Positions 844-41,546 of a stretch of 64,000 nucleotides of DNA are shown one piece after another. The stretch is taken from IMG/VR virus record IMGVR_UViG_3300028914_000061, positions 64,001-128,000 of that record; one strand, 5' to 3'. How positions within the stretch are numbered: position 1 is the first letter of the stretch; every line of letters begins with the position of its first letter. Below the pieces are notes generated by a model that ran no database searches, was not told where the DNA came from, and saw only the letters and a list, made by a program, of their open reading frames with translations. A program made the position numbers and the translations under genes. This DNA is from a virus. Lineage: Duplodnaviria; Caudoviricetes.

Positions 844-970
844 GGAGGTATAGTTTAGTGGTAGAATGACGTAAAATGAAAATAGCATTTTGGTCATTTA
901 AAAATGTTAACAGCATATGAGTTCAATGCCTTTCCCGCCGTTGATGTAGGTTCGATTCCTGCTGCCTCCG
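844..970 (+). tRNA. tRNA (TTC, Glu-like) interrupted by 56-nt insert (872-927)
   Basis: Removing 872-927 gives ACGGC-CTTTCCC-GCCGT and a 71-nt cloverleaf with acceptor GGAGGTA/TGCCTCC; C37 is atypical. Confidence 0.75.
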
Positions 971-1124: not shown

Positions 1125-1256
1125 TGGCCAGTAGCTCAGTTGGCAGAGCAACGGAATGAAAAGAAAACGCATTTTGGCCTAAAGATGTTAACAGCAATGA
1201 AAAATTTTCGACTGTTAATCCGTGGGCCGCAGGTTCGAGTCCTGCCTGACCAGCCA
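1125..1256 (+). tRNA. tRNA-Asn(GTT) interrupted by 56-nt insert (1154-1209)
   Basis: Removing the insert gives a canonical 76-nt tRNA, ACGGA-CTGTTAA-TCCGT, encoded CCA. Confidence 0.88.
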
Positions 1257-1366: not shown

Positions 1367-1442
1367 GCATGTATGAAGCAGATTGGATGTGCTACCAGCG
1401 TGATAAGGCTGGGCTATGTTGGTTCGAATCCAACTGCATGCG
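1367..1442 (+). tRNA. Atypical tRNA (Ile GAT-like) with 8-nt anticodon loop
   Basis: GCATGTA/TGCATGC, CCAGC-GTGATAAG-GCTGG, GTTGG-TTCGAAT-CCAAC. Confidence 0.7.
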
Positions 1443-1483
1443 CAAATTACCTGAACACATAGGGTGATTTATCTGTACAGATT

Positions 1484-1642: not shown

Positions 1643-1709
1643 GGAAAACATACAGCAACTTTAATTCAGTTACAATCTTTTAAATTGTGGGACTAAAATT
1701 TCGTTTTCC
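1643..1709 (+). ncRNA. Stand-alone ACAGCA element enclosing a Lys(TTT)-like anticodon stem-loop
   Basis: GGAAAAC/GTTTTCC helix, ATACAGCAA, ACAAT-CTTTTAA-ATTGT. Confidence 0.65.
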
Positions 1710-1796
1710 GTTTAATATATGGTTGGCAAAGATGAGTTAGCTAGCAAACATTACCCCAAAAGTTATTCATACTTAGGTTATAACGCCAATCATTAT

Positions 1797-5642: not shown

Positions 5643-6605
5643 TTAAACCTTCAATGGGTCATAATCTACTATTTCATCAAATGAGTTTGATAATTCTTTT
5701 TTTGCAATTTCAACCAAGTCGTTTGAACTTACAAACAATCCAGAATCTTTCTTGACTTCAACTTTTGCCATGTCGTTTATATAGTAATATGGTTTTCCGT
5801 TAACTGTTGCAACAATTGACAATATCTTGTCCAAATTGAATGCTTTTCCTTGGAATGTCTTATCCAATTCTGCCTTTTCTTTCATGTATAGTTCAAGTGC
5901 TTCACCTGACAACACATCGGTAACGGCTTTTTCAGGCTTTGGCGCTTGGAAAGGTGTGCTCATTGCATTTACAACGCTTGATGGTATTTCACCAATTACT
6001 TGTCCATTTGTTCCGATTACATAGAATTTTGATTTTGATGCTGGACTACCTGCTGCATTGAAACGCTTTTCAACATCACCTCTTGTGTTTGTTACAACAT
6101 TTGATGATGCATCGTTCTTTTCTACTTGATGCATTGGGTCCCCTAAAATACCTGCTGTTTGAATACCAACTCCGTTTCTCATTCTCAAATCACGTAATTT
6201 GTCGGCATATGCTCCATATGCTTTTCCATAGTTCTTTTCTGTTGTCCAATGCAAAACATATCTTGTAACCATGATAATACCTGCAATTCCTTGAAGTTTC
6301 TTAATTTTGCCTTCAGCATCGTCATTGAATTGCTTTATTTGTGGATACCAATGCTCGTTGCCTTCTTCACCATATCCATTAAGTGCTTTTGTCATATCGT
6401 CAGTTCTCCAACTTCTCTTTGTTCCATAGAATGACTTACCTGTTACATATGTTAATGAAACATAACATCCTGCATTTGTTTCATCTTGTGCATCCAAAAT
6501 ATCTATAATATCGTTCCTGCCGACTTGCTTTCTTTCAATTTTAACCCCCTCATATAAGTTCATTCTATTCATGAGACTTAGGGCTTCATTCAACTGTTTA
6601 TCCAT
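5643..6605 (-). CDS. Hypothetical, probable virion protein
   Basis: 320 aa, N-terminal QLNEALSLMNRM, upstream CTATTTAT. Confidence 0.75.
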   Translation of the reverse strand: MDKQLNEALSLMNRMNLYEGVKIERKQVGRNDIIDILDAQDETNAGCYVSLTYVTGKSFYGTKRSWRTDDMTKALNGYGEEGNEHWYPQIKQFNDDAEGKIKKLQGIAGIIMVTRYVLHWTTEKNYGKAYGAYADKLRDLRMRNGVGIQTAGILGDPMHQVEKNDASSNVVTNTRGDVEKRFNAAGSPASKSKFYVIGTNGQVIGEIPSSVVNAMSTPFQAPKPEKAVTDVLSGEALELYMKEKAELDKTFQGKAFNLDKILSIVATVNGKPYYYINDMAKVEVKKDSGLFVSSNDLVEIAKKELSNSFDEIVDYDPLKV

Positions 6606-30784: not shown

Positions 30785-30857
30785 GCGTCCGTAACTCAGT
30801 CGGTAGAGTACCACACTTTTAATGTGGGAGTCGTGGGTTCGAGTCCCACCGAGCGCA
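30785..30857 (+). tRNA. tRNA-Lys(TTT)
   Basis: CCACA-CTTTTAA-TGTGG, canonical D and T arms. Confidence 0.93.
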
Positions 30858-30877
30858 CACACTTAAAAACTCAAACT

Positions 30878-40852: not shown

Positions 40853-40929
40853 CGGGGCGTATCCGCTCAAGCTTATACCTTGTTGAAACGGTAATTGGTT
40901 ACATGTAGGTTCGATTCCTACCGTCCCGA
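40853..40929 (+). ncRNA. Rearranged tRNA-like RNA, loop CTTATAC (TAT)
   Basis: CGGGGCG/CGTCCCG, perfect T arm, no 5' D arm, GTAA-TTGG-TTAC hairpin 3' of the anticodon arm. Confidence 0.7.
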
Positions 40930-41001: not shown

Positions 41002-41064
41002 AGAAAACATACAGCAACTATTCAATACACAAAGAGAGGGTTTTTGTTTGTCATACTGTTTTCT
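41002..41064 (+). ncRNA. Stand-alone ACAGCA element
   Basis: AGAAAACA-T-ACAGCAA...TGTTTTCT, just after class II promoter. Confidence 0.6.
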
Positions 41065-41360: not shown

Positions 41361-41546
41361 AGAAAGCGTACAGCAAAGCTCAAAATCAAATTAATGTAAT
41401 TAGTTAATTCAAAGATGATGAGATGCGCACTCTCTCCAAGTCTAGGCGCACAGCCCTTAGATACGGCTGCTAAGACCAGAGACTTGGGCGTGAAAACCTT
41501 GGAAAGTACACAGCGCTAAATGATACATCGGTTTTTCTCGCTTTCT
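41361..41546 (+). ncRNA. ACAGCA element enclosing a pseudoknotted domain
   Basis: AGAAAGCG-T-ACAGCAA...CGCTTTCT; CCAAGTCT/AGACTTGG; CAGCC/GGCTG with CTTAG/CTAAG. Confidence 0.65.

What the first reader, a model, noticed from the sequence alone, without database searches (positions are those of the whole stretch)
1643..1709. Stand-alone, circularly permuted ACAGCA element presenting a tRNA-Lys(UUU) anticodon stem-loop
Seen: the helix-plus-ACAGCA motif of the introns recurs outside tRNAs with strand order permuted. Here it reads strandA-ACAGCAA-loop-strandB, whereas in the introns it reads strandB-loop-strandA-ACAGCA. Copies lie at 1643-1709, 41002-41064 and 41361-41546, with compensatory helix changes (GGAAAAC/GTTTTCC, AGAAAACA/TGTTTTCT, AGAAAGCG/CGCTTTCT). 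This copy encloses ACAAT-CTTTTAA-ATTGT, an exact CU-UUU-AA anticodon loop, at about the same distance from ACAGCA as the real anticodon loops in the intron tRNAs. Known: tRNA-Lys(UUU) is cut by PrrC and PARIS AriB. Inference: these RNAs are anticodon decoys, or donors for trans-splicing repair of cleaved tRNAs, forming one system with the introns.
Basis: partly seen in the sequence, partly recalled or inferred. Interest (0 to 1): 0.88.

Follow-up and report, generated by a model that had tools for sequence, protein, structure and literature searches.

The report
Phage handle RNA mimicking tRNA-Lys anticodon
This 67-base stretch of a large cattle-rumen phage is a real small-RNA gene that joins a conserved "handle" (a clamp helix plus the letters ACAGCAA) to a copy of the anticodon arm of lysine tRNA; the same RNA recurs in many unrelated phages that encode a Ro60-like ring protein, so it is most likely an undescribed kind of Y-RNA-like particle and not a piece of an intron.

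Summary
Window 1643-1709 reads closing helix, U, ACAGCAA, spacer, a 5-bp stem with loop CUUUUAA, spacer, closing helix. I found 19 distinct relatives in phage contigs of 50-413 kb. All three helices covary, while ACAGCAA and the Lys-UUU loop stay fixed.

The same handle also encloses whole circularly permuted tRNAs and other cargo. It also forms the "introns" of five tRNAs in this genome.

The handle matches no Rfam family at threshold. Its nearest look-alikes are the handle of Dictyostelium Class I RNAs (stem, CUUACAGCAA, ...CUG) and, by architecture, the tRNA-like Y RNA YrlA.

All seven near-complete phage genomes with this RNA encode a DUF2828+DUF7788 protein, against 0 of 16 near-complete controls. 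Its model folds like Ro60, and a handle often lies directly beside its gene.

My best reading: a Y-RNA-like RNA whose handle docks the Ro60-like protein and whose cargo presents a tRNA-Lys anticodon arm. Binding is inferred. The protein gene is not in this 41%-complete fragment. The decoy function is untested. Trans-splicing repair has no support.

Other agents of this scan reported the same family on other DNA, with notes from at least 68 genomes. I re-tested their Ro60 and Class I leads here.

The parts
1643..1649 (+). P1, 5' strand of the closing (clamp) helix, GGAAAAC, preceded by A1642
   Evidence: It pairs with 1703-1709. P1 is 100% paired in 19 relatives with 2-4 pair types per position. 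The base before P1 is A in 80 of 80 family members.
1652..1658 (+). Invariant single-stranded ACAGCAA of the handle, 2 nt after P1
   Evidence: Invariant in alignment A1 and in all 80 handle elements, which were selected to have it. It aligns to CUUACAGCAA of the Rfam Class I RNA consensus in a relative.
1668..1694 (+). Cargo domain: P2 (AGU 1668-1670 with ACU 1692-1694) enclosing the anticodon-arm mimic
   Evidence: P2 is AGC/GCU in 16 relatives and AGU/ACU in 3, always compensatory.
1672..1688 (+). P3 plus loop: ACAAU-CUUUUAA-AUUGU, a copy of a tRNA-Lys(UUU) anticodon stem-loop
   Evidence: The P3 stem is 98% paired in 19 relatives, with 2-5 pair types per position; shuffled partners give 69% on average and 84% at most. 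RNAalifold finds compensatory changes in 11 of 13 predicted pairs.
1703..1710 (+). P1 3' strand GUUUUCC plus the conserved trailing G
   Evidence: The A-rich stretch before it (AAAAUUUC) fits the family consensus.
41002..41064 (+). Second handle RNA of the window (AGAAAACA/UGUUUUCU) with a 40-nt cargo that is not anticodon-like; it follows a promoter-like TTG-N-TATATTTATAA
   Evidence: The ortholog in G003 is L035(-) 6264.
41361..41546 (+). Third handle RNA (AGAAAGCG/CGCUUUCU) with a 163-nt cargo; it starts 4 nt after tRNA-Met
   Evidence: The ortholog in G003 (L081/L035) has a 176-nt cargo.
844..970 (+). tRNA-Glu(UUC)-shaped gene with a handle arm (hairpin, UUA, ACAGCA at 910-915) inserted after ACG in the 5' anticodon-stem strand
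   Evidence: Rfam tRNA 43.7 bits; sequence. An arm-free tRNA-Glu(UUC) lies at genome 63984.
1125..1253 (+). tRNA-Asn(GUU)-shaped gene with the same handle arm (ACAGCA at 1191-1196)
   Evidence: Rfam tRNA 49.3 bits. ARAGORN calls Asn with a 56-nt insert. Arm-free tRNA-Asn genes lie at genome 56123 and 62525.

Best explanation
Window 1643-1709 is a gene for a small structured RNA of about 67-70 nt. It belongs to a large phage family of 'handle RNAs'. The handle is a 6-9-bp clamp helix formed by the RNA's two ends, flanked by A on the 5' side and G(U) on the 3' side, followed by single-stranded (U)ACAGCAA. It stays in the mature RNA. It most likely serves as the docking site of a Ro60-like ring protein (DUF2828 + DUF7788/vWA) that phages with these RNAs encode. 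This parallels the terminal stem of Y RNAs, which docks Ro60. The variable inner part is cargo, and here it is a mimic of the tRNA-Lys(UUU) anticodon arm. By analogy with Y RNAs, which tether Ro60 to other proteins, the cargo would bring the protein together with a factor that recognises the tRNA-Lys anticodon arm, or shield the phage from such a factor. Candidate factors are an anticodon nuclease, a modification enzyme or LysRS. Shown: the RNA family, its structure by covariation, conservation of the Lys loop, co-occurrence with the protein gene, and the protein's Ro60-like fold. Inferred: binding of handle to protein, the ends of the mature RNA, and what the cargo engages.
For: (1) Family and structure. 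A loop-anchored scan found 19 distinct Lys minis in phage contigs. P1, P2 and P3 all covary, while ACAGCAA, CUUUUAA and GCU/ACU-AAA stay fixed. The direct ortholog lies in the related 303-kb phage G003 (L095:1499-1576). A first scan that did not constrain the loop already gave Lys minis in four independent lineages: G000/G003, G001, G002 and G004. (2) The same handle encloses other cargo. ARAGORN finds whole permuted tRNAs on rotated inserts: Thr, Tyr, Cys, Ile, Lys. Other cargo includes a T-arm, closed acceptor and D-arm in YrlA order, and 160-280-nt RNAs. Infernal gives sub-threshold YrlA matches through the tRNA-like part. (3) The handle consensus over 80 elements is A|AGAA..|(U)ACAGCAA| U-rich ... 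A-rich |..UUCU|GU. It equals the Class I RNA plan of a 6-bp terminal stem, an adjacent 11-nt motif, an AAG start and a CUGU end, all kept in the mature RNA (PMC7919456). A G001 mini aligns end to end with RF01414 at 30.4 bits. (4) Partner. PF11443 (DUF2828) hits both complete genomes. The proteins (587 and 555 aa) are 32% identical and both carry DUF2828 + DUF7788. The AlphaFold model (pLDDT 77) has Ro60/TROVE structures as its top 12 listed Foldseek hits, aligned over the full length, E 3e-7 to 3e-5. (5) Co-occurrence. 13 of 17 further Lys-mini records encode the protein, and the four that do not are 3-14% complete. Counting G001 and G002, that is 7 of 7 records that are at least 90% complete, against 0 of 16 such controls (Fisher p = 4e-6, lineages not independent). 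(6) Adjacency. In divergent homolog loci the handles lie next to the gene on the same strand: 10 directly downstream in L223, 7 directly upstream in L225, and one ending within about 10 nt of the gene start in G002/L229 and L228. (7) Against a splicing role: every one of the five handle-arm tRNAs of this genome has an arm-free isoacceptor twin, as do permuted Thr and Tyr in G001.
Against: The Ro60-like gene was not found in this contig (41% complete), in its relative G003 (82% complete) or in G004. This holds with Pfam models, a protein query and an 11-sequence profile at E up to 1. For the window's own lineage the partner is therefore not shown; it may be absent, host-supplied or too divergent to detect. 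No experiment or model here shows that the protein binds the handle. Co-occurrence rests on about four independent lineages. The handle lacks the Ro60-binding motif of YrlA. The known binder of Class I RNAs is an RRM protein (Rnp1A), not Ro60. Removing the arms restores perfect tRNAs, and many permuted cargos have perfect 7-bp acceptor hairpins. These features also fit a splicing precursor. About half of the minis carry no anticodon-like hairpin, so anticodon display is not a defining feature of the family.
Confidence: 0.55

Rival explanations
1. Splicing and circularisation module. The helix plus ACAGCA marks a new kind of tRNA intron. When the helix is split, it marks permuted tRNA precursors that are cut at both junctions and ligated through a circular intermediate, as in Cyanidioschyzon merolae. 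The mini would then be processed into a free, possibly circular, Lys anticodon hairpin.
For: Removing the inserts restores canonical anticodon stems; Rfam scores the two window genes as tRNA at 43.7 and 49.3 bits. The permuted cargos are complete cloverleaves with 7-bp acceptor hairpins and breaks at 26/27, 27/28 or 29/30. Junctions often read ACG|U ... AU|G (Glu, Gly, Pro arms and permuted Thr; my reading). The permuted form is what tandem duplication of an intron-bearing gene would give. G002 encodes two RNA-ligase-domain proteins.
Against: None of the five phage records, two of them complete, has RtcB or a splicing endonuclease. The G001 hit to the RNA_ligase family is a DNA ligase. Spacers from the handle to the junctions vary (10-15 and 6-16 nt), so there is no ruler. 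The minis, the cargo without an anticodon arm (genome 62772) and the 160-280-nt cargos cannot give tRNAs. All arm-bearing or permuted tRNAs have ordinary twins. The handle sits beside, and in the leader of, a Ro60-like gene. In Class I RNAs it is kept in the mature RNA. RNA-run contigs gave no joints at these elements, but contigs are poor evidence.
Confidence: 0.17
2. Protein-independent decoy or sponge. The RNA acts alone as a competitive substrate or inhibitor of a host nuclease that cuts the tRNA-Lys(UUU) anticodon loop (PrrC/RloC-type, PARIS AriB, Cas13). The handle only stabilises the RNA.
For: The loop CUUUUAA is strictly kept on a covarying stem. Other minis carry UUC, UGG, GUA, GCA and GCU loops. 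This genome holds three ordinary tRNA-Lys(UUU) genes with different anticodon stems, which suggests pressure on this tRNA. tRNA-Lys is a known nuclease target (literature titles).
Against: This does not explain an invariant 7-nt single-stranded motif, the conserved flanking A and G, or the co-occurrence and adjacency with the Ro60-like gene. Half of the minis and all the larger cargos are not anticodon-like. No nuclease or host is identified.
Confidence: 0.12
3. Decayed remnant: a deletion derivative of a permuted or arm-bearing tRNA-Lys gene with no function of its own.
For: Deletion-like variants exist. Genome 62772 lacks the anticodon arm, whereas the element with the same clamp helix in G003 is a full permuted tRNA-Tyr. 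G004 has a full-size permuted tRNA-Lys(UUU) in the same handle.
Against: There are 19 distinct members in contigs of 50-413 kb, with compensatory changes in three helices, a fixed loop, a fixed P2-AAA context and a narrow size range (cargo 40-51 nt). Neutral remnants would not keep this.
Confidence: 0.04
4. A small self-cleaving or self-ligating ribozyme whose core is the ACAGCAA internal loop.
For: An invariant unpaired heptamer beside a helix is typical of ribozyme cores. No processing protein shared by all five records was found.
Against: No Rfam ribozyme family matches, even at E up to 5. The strands that join handle and cargo vary freely in length and sequence and are G-poor. Little is conserved besides the heptamer. 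The protein association offers a simpler reading.
Confidence: 0.05

Closest known systems
Y RNAs bound by Ro60/Rsr, especially the tRNA-like YrlA of bacteria and mycobacteriophages (Rfam RF02553; Chen et al. 2014, PMC4201824)
   Same: A small RNA closed by a stem made of its 5' and 3' ends. The inner part mimics tRNA; in family members with permuted tRNAs the order T-arm, closed acceptor, D-arm is exactly that of YrlA. It is encoded in phages that carry a Ro60-fold protein, often next to its gene.
   Different: The handle sequence is unrelated and has no GNCGAAN0-1G motif. The protein is DUF2828/DUF7788, not a Pfam TROVE hit. Rfam scores are 25-40 bits against a threshold of 69 and come only from the tRNA-like part. 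The window's RNA carries an anticodon arm, which YrlA lacks. There are many paralogs per genome, set in tRNA arrays.
Class I RNAs of dictyostelid social amoebae (Rfam RF01414; Kjellin et al. 2021, PMC7919456)
   Same: The same handle plan and nearly the same letters: a short covarying terminal stem, then CUUACAGCAA, a variable middle, the 3' stem strand, then UG. Conserved AAG at the start and CUGU at the end. Length about 60 nt.
   Different: Class I RNAs are eukaryotic nuclear genes with a DUSE promoter and were reported as unique to Dictyostelia. No tRNA-like cargo is described for them. Their known binder is the RRM protein Rnp1A. The window's element does not reach E = 10 against RF01414, and the best phage relative reaches 30.4 bits against a threshold of 41.5.
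Circularly permuted tRNA genes (Cyanidioschyzon merolae and some algae and archaea), expressed through a circular intermediate (my knowledge; reviewed in PMC3400036 and PMC4238349, listed)
   Same: Family members enclose a 3' tRNA part, a linker and a 5' tRNA part, with the ends held by a helix.
   Different: There is no bulge-helix-bulge motif and no splicing endonuclease. The host is bacterial, judged from the phage's own tmRNA genes. The window's element encloses only an intact anticodon arm, which is not permuted.
'Enigmatic' introns in tRNAs of Lak megaphages (Devoto et al. 2019, bioRxiv 10.1101/356790 / PMC6784885)
   Same: tRNA genes of large gut phages interrupted by short conserved inserts with no known splicing route. 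One Thr(UGU) insert was itself predicted to hold a tRNA.
   Different: I found no clustered handle in Lak-B2. WACAGCAA matches are scattered and none lies next to a tRNA in the 49 kb I read. Whether the Lak inserts belong to this family is not shown.

Membership tests
Phage ACAGCAA-handle RNA family (uncatalogued; defined here and in earlier notes of this scan) | Terminal clamp helix of 6-9 bp that covaries, flanked by a 5' A and a 3' G | tested here: met
   A1642, GGAAAAC/GUUUUCC, G1710. Family statistics.
Phage ACAGCAA-handle RNA family (uncatalogued; defined here and in earlier notes of this scan) | Single-stranded ACAGCAA 0-3 nt after the 5' strand of the clamp | tested here: met
   AU + ACAGCAA at 1650-1658. 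Spacer distribution.
Phage ACAGCAA-handle RNA family (uncatalogued; defined here and in earlier notes of this scan) | A Ro60-like DUF2828/DUF7788 gene in the same genome | tested here: not met
   Absent from the 148-kb contig (41% complete) and from relative G003 (82% complete). Present in 7 of 7 near-complete genomes of other lineages. It may lie in the missing part.
YrlA / Y RNA (RF02553) | Rfam gathering score (69 bits) | tested here: not met
   No hit for the window's element. Family members with permuted tRNAs score 25-40 bits.
YrlA / Y RNA (RF02553) | Ro60-binding stem with the GNCGAAN0-1G motif (PMC4201824) | tested here: not met
   By reading the handle and the family consensus, the motif is absent; the handle has ACAGCAA instead. 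Motif taken.
YrlA / Y RNA (RF02553) | tRNA-like T-arm, closed acceptor stem and D-arm | tested here: not met
   The window's element holds only an anticodon-arm mimic. Other members of the handle family do have this domain.
YrlA / Y RNA (RF02553) | Bound by Ro60/Rsr | not testable with these tools
   Only co-occurrence and adjacency with a protein of Ro60 fold were shown.
Dictyostelium Class I RNA (RF01414) | Short terminal stem plus an adjacent 11-nt motif (CUUACAGCAA in the Rfam consensus) | tested here: met
   Window: GGAAAAC-AU-ACAGCAA. Consensus shown; description.
Dictyostelium Class I RNA (RF01414) | Conserved AAG at the start and CUGU at the end of the mature RNA | tested here: inconclusive
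   The window has A-GG...CC-GU. The family consensus is A-AG...CU-GU, which fits at the DNA level. The mature ends are unknown.
Dictyostelium Class I RNA (RF01414) | Rfam gathering score (41.5 bits) | tested here: not met
   No match at E up to 10 for 1630-1725. 30.4 bits for a G001 relative.
Dictyostelium Class I RNA (RF01414) | Dictyostelid nuclear gene with a DUSE promoter about 60 nt upstream | tested here: not met
   The element lies in a phage tRNA array, 5 nt after a tRNA-like gene. DUSE is described.
tRNA anticodon arm (Lys UUU) | 5-bp stem and a 7-nt loop with pyrimidine-32, U33, UUU and purine-37 | tested here: met
   ACAAU-CUUUUAA-AUUGU. The loop is identical to that of the three tRNA-Lys(UUU) genes of this genome; the stems differ.
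Permuted tRNA gene with splicing | The 3' part of a tRNA upstream of its 5' part inside the element | tested here: not met
   The 45-nt cargo holds an intact anticodon arm only. This feature is met by other members of the family.
Permuted tRNA gene with splicing | Splicing endonuclease and ligase available; spliced or circular RNA seen | tested here: inconclusive
   The phage records have no EndA or RtcB. The control Bacteroides genome does have RtcB. RNA contigs show no joints, but contigs cannot exclude them.

The most novel reading that the evidence does not exclude
Large gut and rumen phages deploy a battery of Ro60-like RNA-protein particles whose RNAs display tRNA parts. The Lys(UUU) anticodon-arm version is the most widely conserved. 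It would be a protein-mounted bait that captures or blocks host enzymes that attack or read the tRNA-Lys anticodon loop (PrrC/RloC-, AriB- or Cas13-type nucleases). That would be a new anti-defence principle. It would also give a first functional clue for the unexplained Class I RNAs of social amoebae, which share the handle.
Probability: 0.2. Interest if true: 0.92.

Novelty: new variant of a known kind. Interest (0 to 1): 0.8.

Why it matters
If the reading holds, this RNA is one of a large family of structured RNA genes hidden among phage tRNA genes. The family is strongly supported by covariation. It is absent from Rfam 15 and from the papers I could search. It would extend the Ro60/Y-RNA principle, a ring protein plus a tRNA-mimicking RNA, to a second and sequence-unrelated handle and a divergent protein family (DUF2828). 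It would explain some of the odd 'intron-bearing' and 'broken' tRNAs that annotation pipelines report in big phages. It would also link them by a shared handle to the Dictyostelium Class I RNAs, whose function has been open since 2004. The strict conservation of a tRNA-Lys(UUU) anticodon arm points to a testable interplay with tRNA-targeting defence or tRNA-reading enzymes. A practical consequence is that such elements should not be annotated as tRNA introns or pseudogenes.

Tried and rejected
- **Known RNA families.** Rfam at gathering scores over the window, and at E up to 5 over both arrays, gave only tRNAs and noise.
- **Theta (HDV-like) ribozymes behind phage tRNAs (PMC10879173).** The topology does not fit, because the closing helix encloses everything. 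I dropped this without a formal descriptor search.
- **Processing enzymes.** RtcB, the tRNA splicing endonuclease, T4 Rnl1 and Pfam TROVE are absent from G000-G004. The Rnl1 control rang nowhere, so that negative is empty. The G001 RNA_ligase hit is a DNA ligase.
- **Similarity to GenBank phages.** BLAST of the array and of the element found only ordinary tRNA matches or chance hits.
- **Lak megaphage Lak-B2.** No clustered handle.
- **Prokaryote genomes.** A specific Lys-mini pattern over 185,579 genomes gave 5 hits. One is real, on a phage-like contig binned as Myxococcales, and its genome bin (G026) also holds the Ro60-like gene. So the family looks viral.
- **Public RNA runs.** Three rumen metatranscriptome runs and one DNA run were laid on the array as contigs only. 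No joints appeared at the handle elements. Depth over the element is low (0.8-5) and could be DNA, so this is neither evidence of expression nor of splicing.
- **Looking for more complete relatives of this phage.** A 17-mer from the 41361 cargo gave only chance matches in GC-rich 40-kb contigs.
- **Minimum-free-energy folds of the arm-bearing tRNAs.** They were inconsistent with one another.
- **Covariance model.** I did not build one; a custom helix finder did the job instead.
Full report
**What is in the sequence**

The window is bases 64001-128000 of a single 148,072-bp IMG/VR phage contig. It has 35% G+C and CheckV rates it 41% complete. Public runs that hold it are mostly cattle, goat and sheep gut metagenomes.

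The contig carries about 47 tRNA genes in two arrays. These include a CUA suppressor and a tmRNA. The reported element sits in the first array.

It reads as follows:
- A1642
- GGAAAAC (1643-1649)
- AU
- ACAGCAA (1652-1658)
- a U-rich spacer
- AGU (1668-1670)
- U
- ACAAU-CUUUUAA-AUUGU (1672-1688)
- GGG
- ACU (1692-1694)
- AAAAUUUC
- GUUUUCC (1703-1709)
- G1710

The combined motif is far above chance. There are three exact matches. With up to 2 mismatches there are 5 matches against 0.35 expected. ACAGCAA alone is not enriched.

In the whole contig I count seven stand-alone copies, each with a different closing helix. Five more copies sit inside tRNA-shaped genes, where the helix is a hairpin directly 5' of ACAGCA.

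**Relatives**

A scan of IMG/VR with AGAAARYRTACAGCAAC returned mostly chance hits. It also returned true homologs in the tRNA arrays of several large phage contigs:
- G001: 185.6 kb, terminal repeats, complete
- G002: 392.8 kb, complete
- G003: 302.6 kb, 82% complete, a relative of this phage
- G004: 77.8 kb

G003 holds the direct ortholog of the window's element. It has the same anticodon-arm mimic and a slightly longer spacer (L095:1499-1576).

A second scan was anchored on TACAGCAA, CUUUUAA and RCUAAA. It gave 31 hits closed by a helix, of which 17 were distinct sequences once three chance helices are set aside. With the window's own copy and its G003 ortholog that makes 19 distinct members, in contigs of 50-413 kb.

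In these 19 sequences:
- The clamp helix P1 is always paired, with 2-4 pair types per position. P1 was a selection criterion, so this is expected.
- The anticodon-like stem P3 was not selected for. It is 98% paired with 2-5 pair types per position. Shuffled partners give 69% on average and 84% at most.
- A 3-bp helix P2 that brackets the arm is AGC/GCU in 16 and AGU/ACU in 3.

RNAalifold on a plain MAFFT alignment finds compensatory changes in 11 of 13 predicted pairs.

The single sequence is not thermodynamically special (z = -0.01). The evidence for structure is comparative.

The first, loop-independent scan had already found a Lys(UUU) mini in each of four independent lineages: G000/G003, G001, G002 and G004. 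So the prominence of Lys is not only a result of my second pattern.

**The family is wider than the mini**

Over 80 handle elements the consensus is as follows:
- A before the helix. This was 80 of 80 and was not a selection criterion.
- A helix that starts AGAA and ends UUCU.
- G after the helix.
- 0-2 nt, then ACAGCAA.
- A U-rich, G-poor strand.
- The cargo.
- An A-rich strand.

Cargo lengths fall into three classes: about 40-50 nt, 90-140 nt and 160-280 nt.

The middle class holds circularly permuted tRNAs. After rotating the inserts, ARAGORN calls Thr(UGU), Tyr(GUA), Cys, Ile and Lys(UUU) across the junction. By eye the parts are clear. For example, in G001 the 3' part (GC, CUUGUAA, GCCGU, the T-arm and AGGUGGA) is followed by a 4-nt linker and then the 5' part (UCCACUU, the D-arm and ACG).

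Break points differ between elements: 8/9, 26/27, 27/28 and 29/30.

Some cargos lack the anticodon arm, for example genome 62772. Others lack the D-arm.

Among the minis, 18 of 36 non-redundant elements hold a YU-NNN-R heptaloop on a stem of at least 4 bp, against 2.4 expected from shuffles. Among those not selected for the Lys loop the count is 7 of 24 against 1.6 expected, and 2 of 1000 shuffles reach 7. The triplets seen in the listed minis include UUU, UUC, UGG, GUA, GCA and GCU.

About half of the minis, however, carry something else.

**Splicing or a permanent handle?**

I first read the family as a new intron and permuted-precursor system. Several results argue against that reading:
- None of five phage records, two of them complete, encodes RtcB or a splicing endonuclease. 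The only shared 'RNA ligase' hit turned out to be a DNA ligase in G001.
- The strands between handle and junction vary from 10 to 15 nt and from 6 to 16 nt. A measuring enzyme or a compact ribozyme core is therefore unlikely.
- The minis, the armless cargos and the long cargos cannot become tRNAs.
- All five handle-arm tRNAs of this genome (Tyr, Gly, Pro, Glu, Asn) have an ordinary twin with the same anticodon. So do permuted Thr and Tyr in G001.
- Infernal gives sub-threshold matches of the permuted-tRNA members to YrlA, the tRNA-like Y RNA. YrlA has the same order of parts and a terminal stem that docks Ro60.

RNA-run contigs gave no joints at the elements. Contigs are weak evidence, so I do not count this either way.

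**The partner protein**

Notes from other agents of this scan said that the handle travels with a DUF2828 protein. They also said it resembles Dictyostelium Class I RNAs. I treated both claims as leads and tested them.

Sequence and fold:
- PF11443 hits one ORF in each complete genome. The two proteins (587 and 555 aa) are 32% identical. Both carry DUF2828 followed by DUF7788, with a faint vWA_Ro60 hit.
- An AlphaFold model built from 11 homologs has pLDDT 77 and pTM 0.74. Its top 12 listed Foldseek hits are Ro60/TROVE structures from frog, human, Deinococcus and Thermus phage phiLo. They align over the full length, with E from 3e-7 to 3e-5.

Adjacency, in loci of divergent homologs:
- The handles lie beside the gene on the same strand.
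- Ten lie in tandem directly downstream in L223.
- Seven lie directly upstream in L225.
- One ends within about 10 nt of the gene start in G002/L229 and in L228.
- In G001 the gene lies about 1.2 kb upstream of the tRNA and handle array.

Co-occurrence:
- Of 17 further records with a Lys mini, 13 encode the protein. The four without it are fragments of 3-14% completeness.
- Counting G001 and G002, all 7 records that are at least 90% complete have the gene.
- None of 16 control records of the same completeness has it. The controls are contigs whose matches to my patterns were chance matches without a helix.
- Fisher's exact test gives p = 4e-6. The positive records represent only about four independent lineages.

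The one real hit in 185,579 prokaryote genomes is a phage-like contig, and its genome bin (G026) also holds the gene.

**The Class I RNA link**

Kjellin et al. (PMC7919456) describe Class I RNAs. They are about 60 nt long, with a 6-bp covarying stem that joins the two ends and an 11-nt motif next to the 5' strand. AAG is conserved at the start and CUGU at the end, and both are kept in the mature RNA.

The Rfam consensus reads GaUcuC-CUUACAGCAA ... GagAuC-UG. A G001 mini aligns to it end to end at 30.4 bits, below the threshold of 41.5. The window's own element does not reach E = 10.

The phage consensus A-AGAA...UUCU-GU follows the same plan. This supports the view that the handle belongs to the mature RNA. 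It is a resemblance and not membership.

**What remains open for this window**

The Ro60-like gene is absent from this 41%-complete contig, from G003 (82% complete) and from G004. I searched with Pfam models, a protein query and a profile at E up to 1. The gene may lie in the missing parts, be replaced by a host Rsr, or be too divergent to detect. The Bacteroides control genome has both TROVE and RtcB.

Binding of the protein to the handle is inferred from co-occurrence and adjacency only. What the Lys arm engages is unknown.

This genome keeps three ordinary tRNA-Lys(UUU) genes with three different anticodon stems. tRNA-Lys is a classic target of anticodon nucleases. These facts make a bait or shield role attractive but do not show it.

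**Verdict**

The proposed mechanism of trans-splicing repair has no support.

My best reading, at 0.55, is a Y-RNA-like handle RNA that docks a Ro60-like protein and presents a tRNA-Lys anticodon arm. The main rival, at 0.17, is a splicing and circularisation module.

I found no description of the family in Rfam 15 or in the searched literature.

Noticed in passing
L080:9760-9860 (genome 62760-62860, just upstream of the window): A handle RNA (AGAAATC/GAUUUCU) whose 71-nt cargo is a T-arm, a closed 7-bp acceptor hairpin and a small D-arm in YrlA order, with no anticodon arm. The element with the same clamp helix in G003 (L092 at about 1500-1640) is a complete permuted tRNA-Tyr(GUA).
   Followed up: partly
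window 41361-41546: A handle RNA with a 163-nt cargo that is not tRNA-like, conserved in G003 (176 nt; L081/L035). G001-type phages have a different conserved 190-nt cargo in the same kind of handle (L088, minus strand, at 299). The identity of these larger cargos is unknown, and no Rfam family matches.
   Followed up: partly
L229 (G002) 6000-6041; L228 5936-5993; L225 5939-5976: A minimal handle with only 16-35 nt of cargo ends within about 25 nt (about 10 nt or less in L229 and L228) of where the Ro60-like gene's match begins (locus position 6001) in three divergent phages. This suggests that the protein binds its own mRNA leader (autoregulation) or that RNA and protein are co-transcribed.
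   Followed up: partly
window 30785-30858 and genome 57881-57955, 57964-58040: There are three ordinary tRNA-Lys(UUU) genes with three different anticodon stems (CCUGA, CUUGA, CCACA), in addition to the Lys mini. This is an unusual investment in one isoacceptor.
   Followed up: no
window 1367-1443, 1484-1638, 40853-40929: tRNA-like genes with aberrant cores or long inserts that carry no ACAGCA. Rfam scores them as tRNA at 21-29 bits. ARAGORN calls 1484-1638 a tRNA-Gln(UUG) with a 64-nt insert. They are a second, separate kind of odd tRNA in this array.
   Followed up: no
L080:6730-6922 (genome 59730-59922): Contigs of two metatranscriptome runs skip 191 nt right after the arm-bearing tRNA-Pro, while a third RNA run has the unskipped form. 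The skipped piece is bounded by a direct repeat (AAUGAAAUMCCAAGUGGG...). A strain deletion between repeats is therefore more likely than RNA processing.
   Followed up: partly
genome 63519-63944 (just upstream of the window); L095:245-437; L102:2538-2884: ARAGORN calls a permuted tmRNA (tag GNENYAYAVAA) in this phage. Rfam's tmRNA_permuted model hits the relative G003 at 65 bits, and a standard tmRNA hits G002. So the phages carry their own tmRNA next to the handle RNAs.
   Followed up: no
genome 53382-53453 and 59471-59597 (outside the window): A tRNA with anticodon CUA (amber suppressor), and a tRNA-shaped gene with anticodon UUA and an insert. These suggest stop-codon reassignment in this phage.
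   Followed up: no
L194:83-1420 (G002, directly upstream of the Ro60-like gene): A 445-aa ORF with treble-clef zinc-finger repeats (DUF4379, DUF723) and faint, sub-threshold hits to a tRNA-splicing-endonuclease N-terminal family and to RNase P Rpp14. A handle (AGAAAATTA-ACAGCAA) starts at about the ORF's own start, some 1.4 kb upstream of the Ro60-like gene.
   Followed up: no
L183:1429-2106 and L185:1399-2079 (G002): Two small (225-226 aa) proteins with the RNA_ligase domain (PF09414) in the 393-kb phage. No counterpart was found in G001.
   Followed up: no
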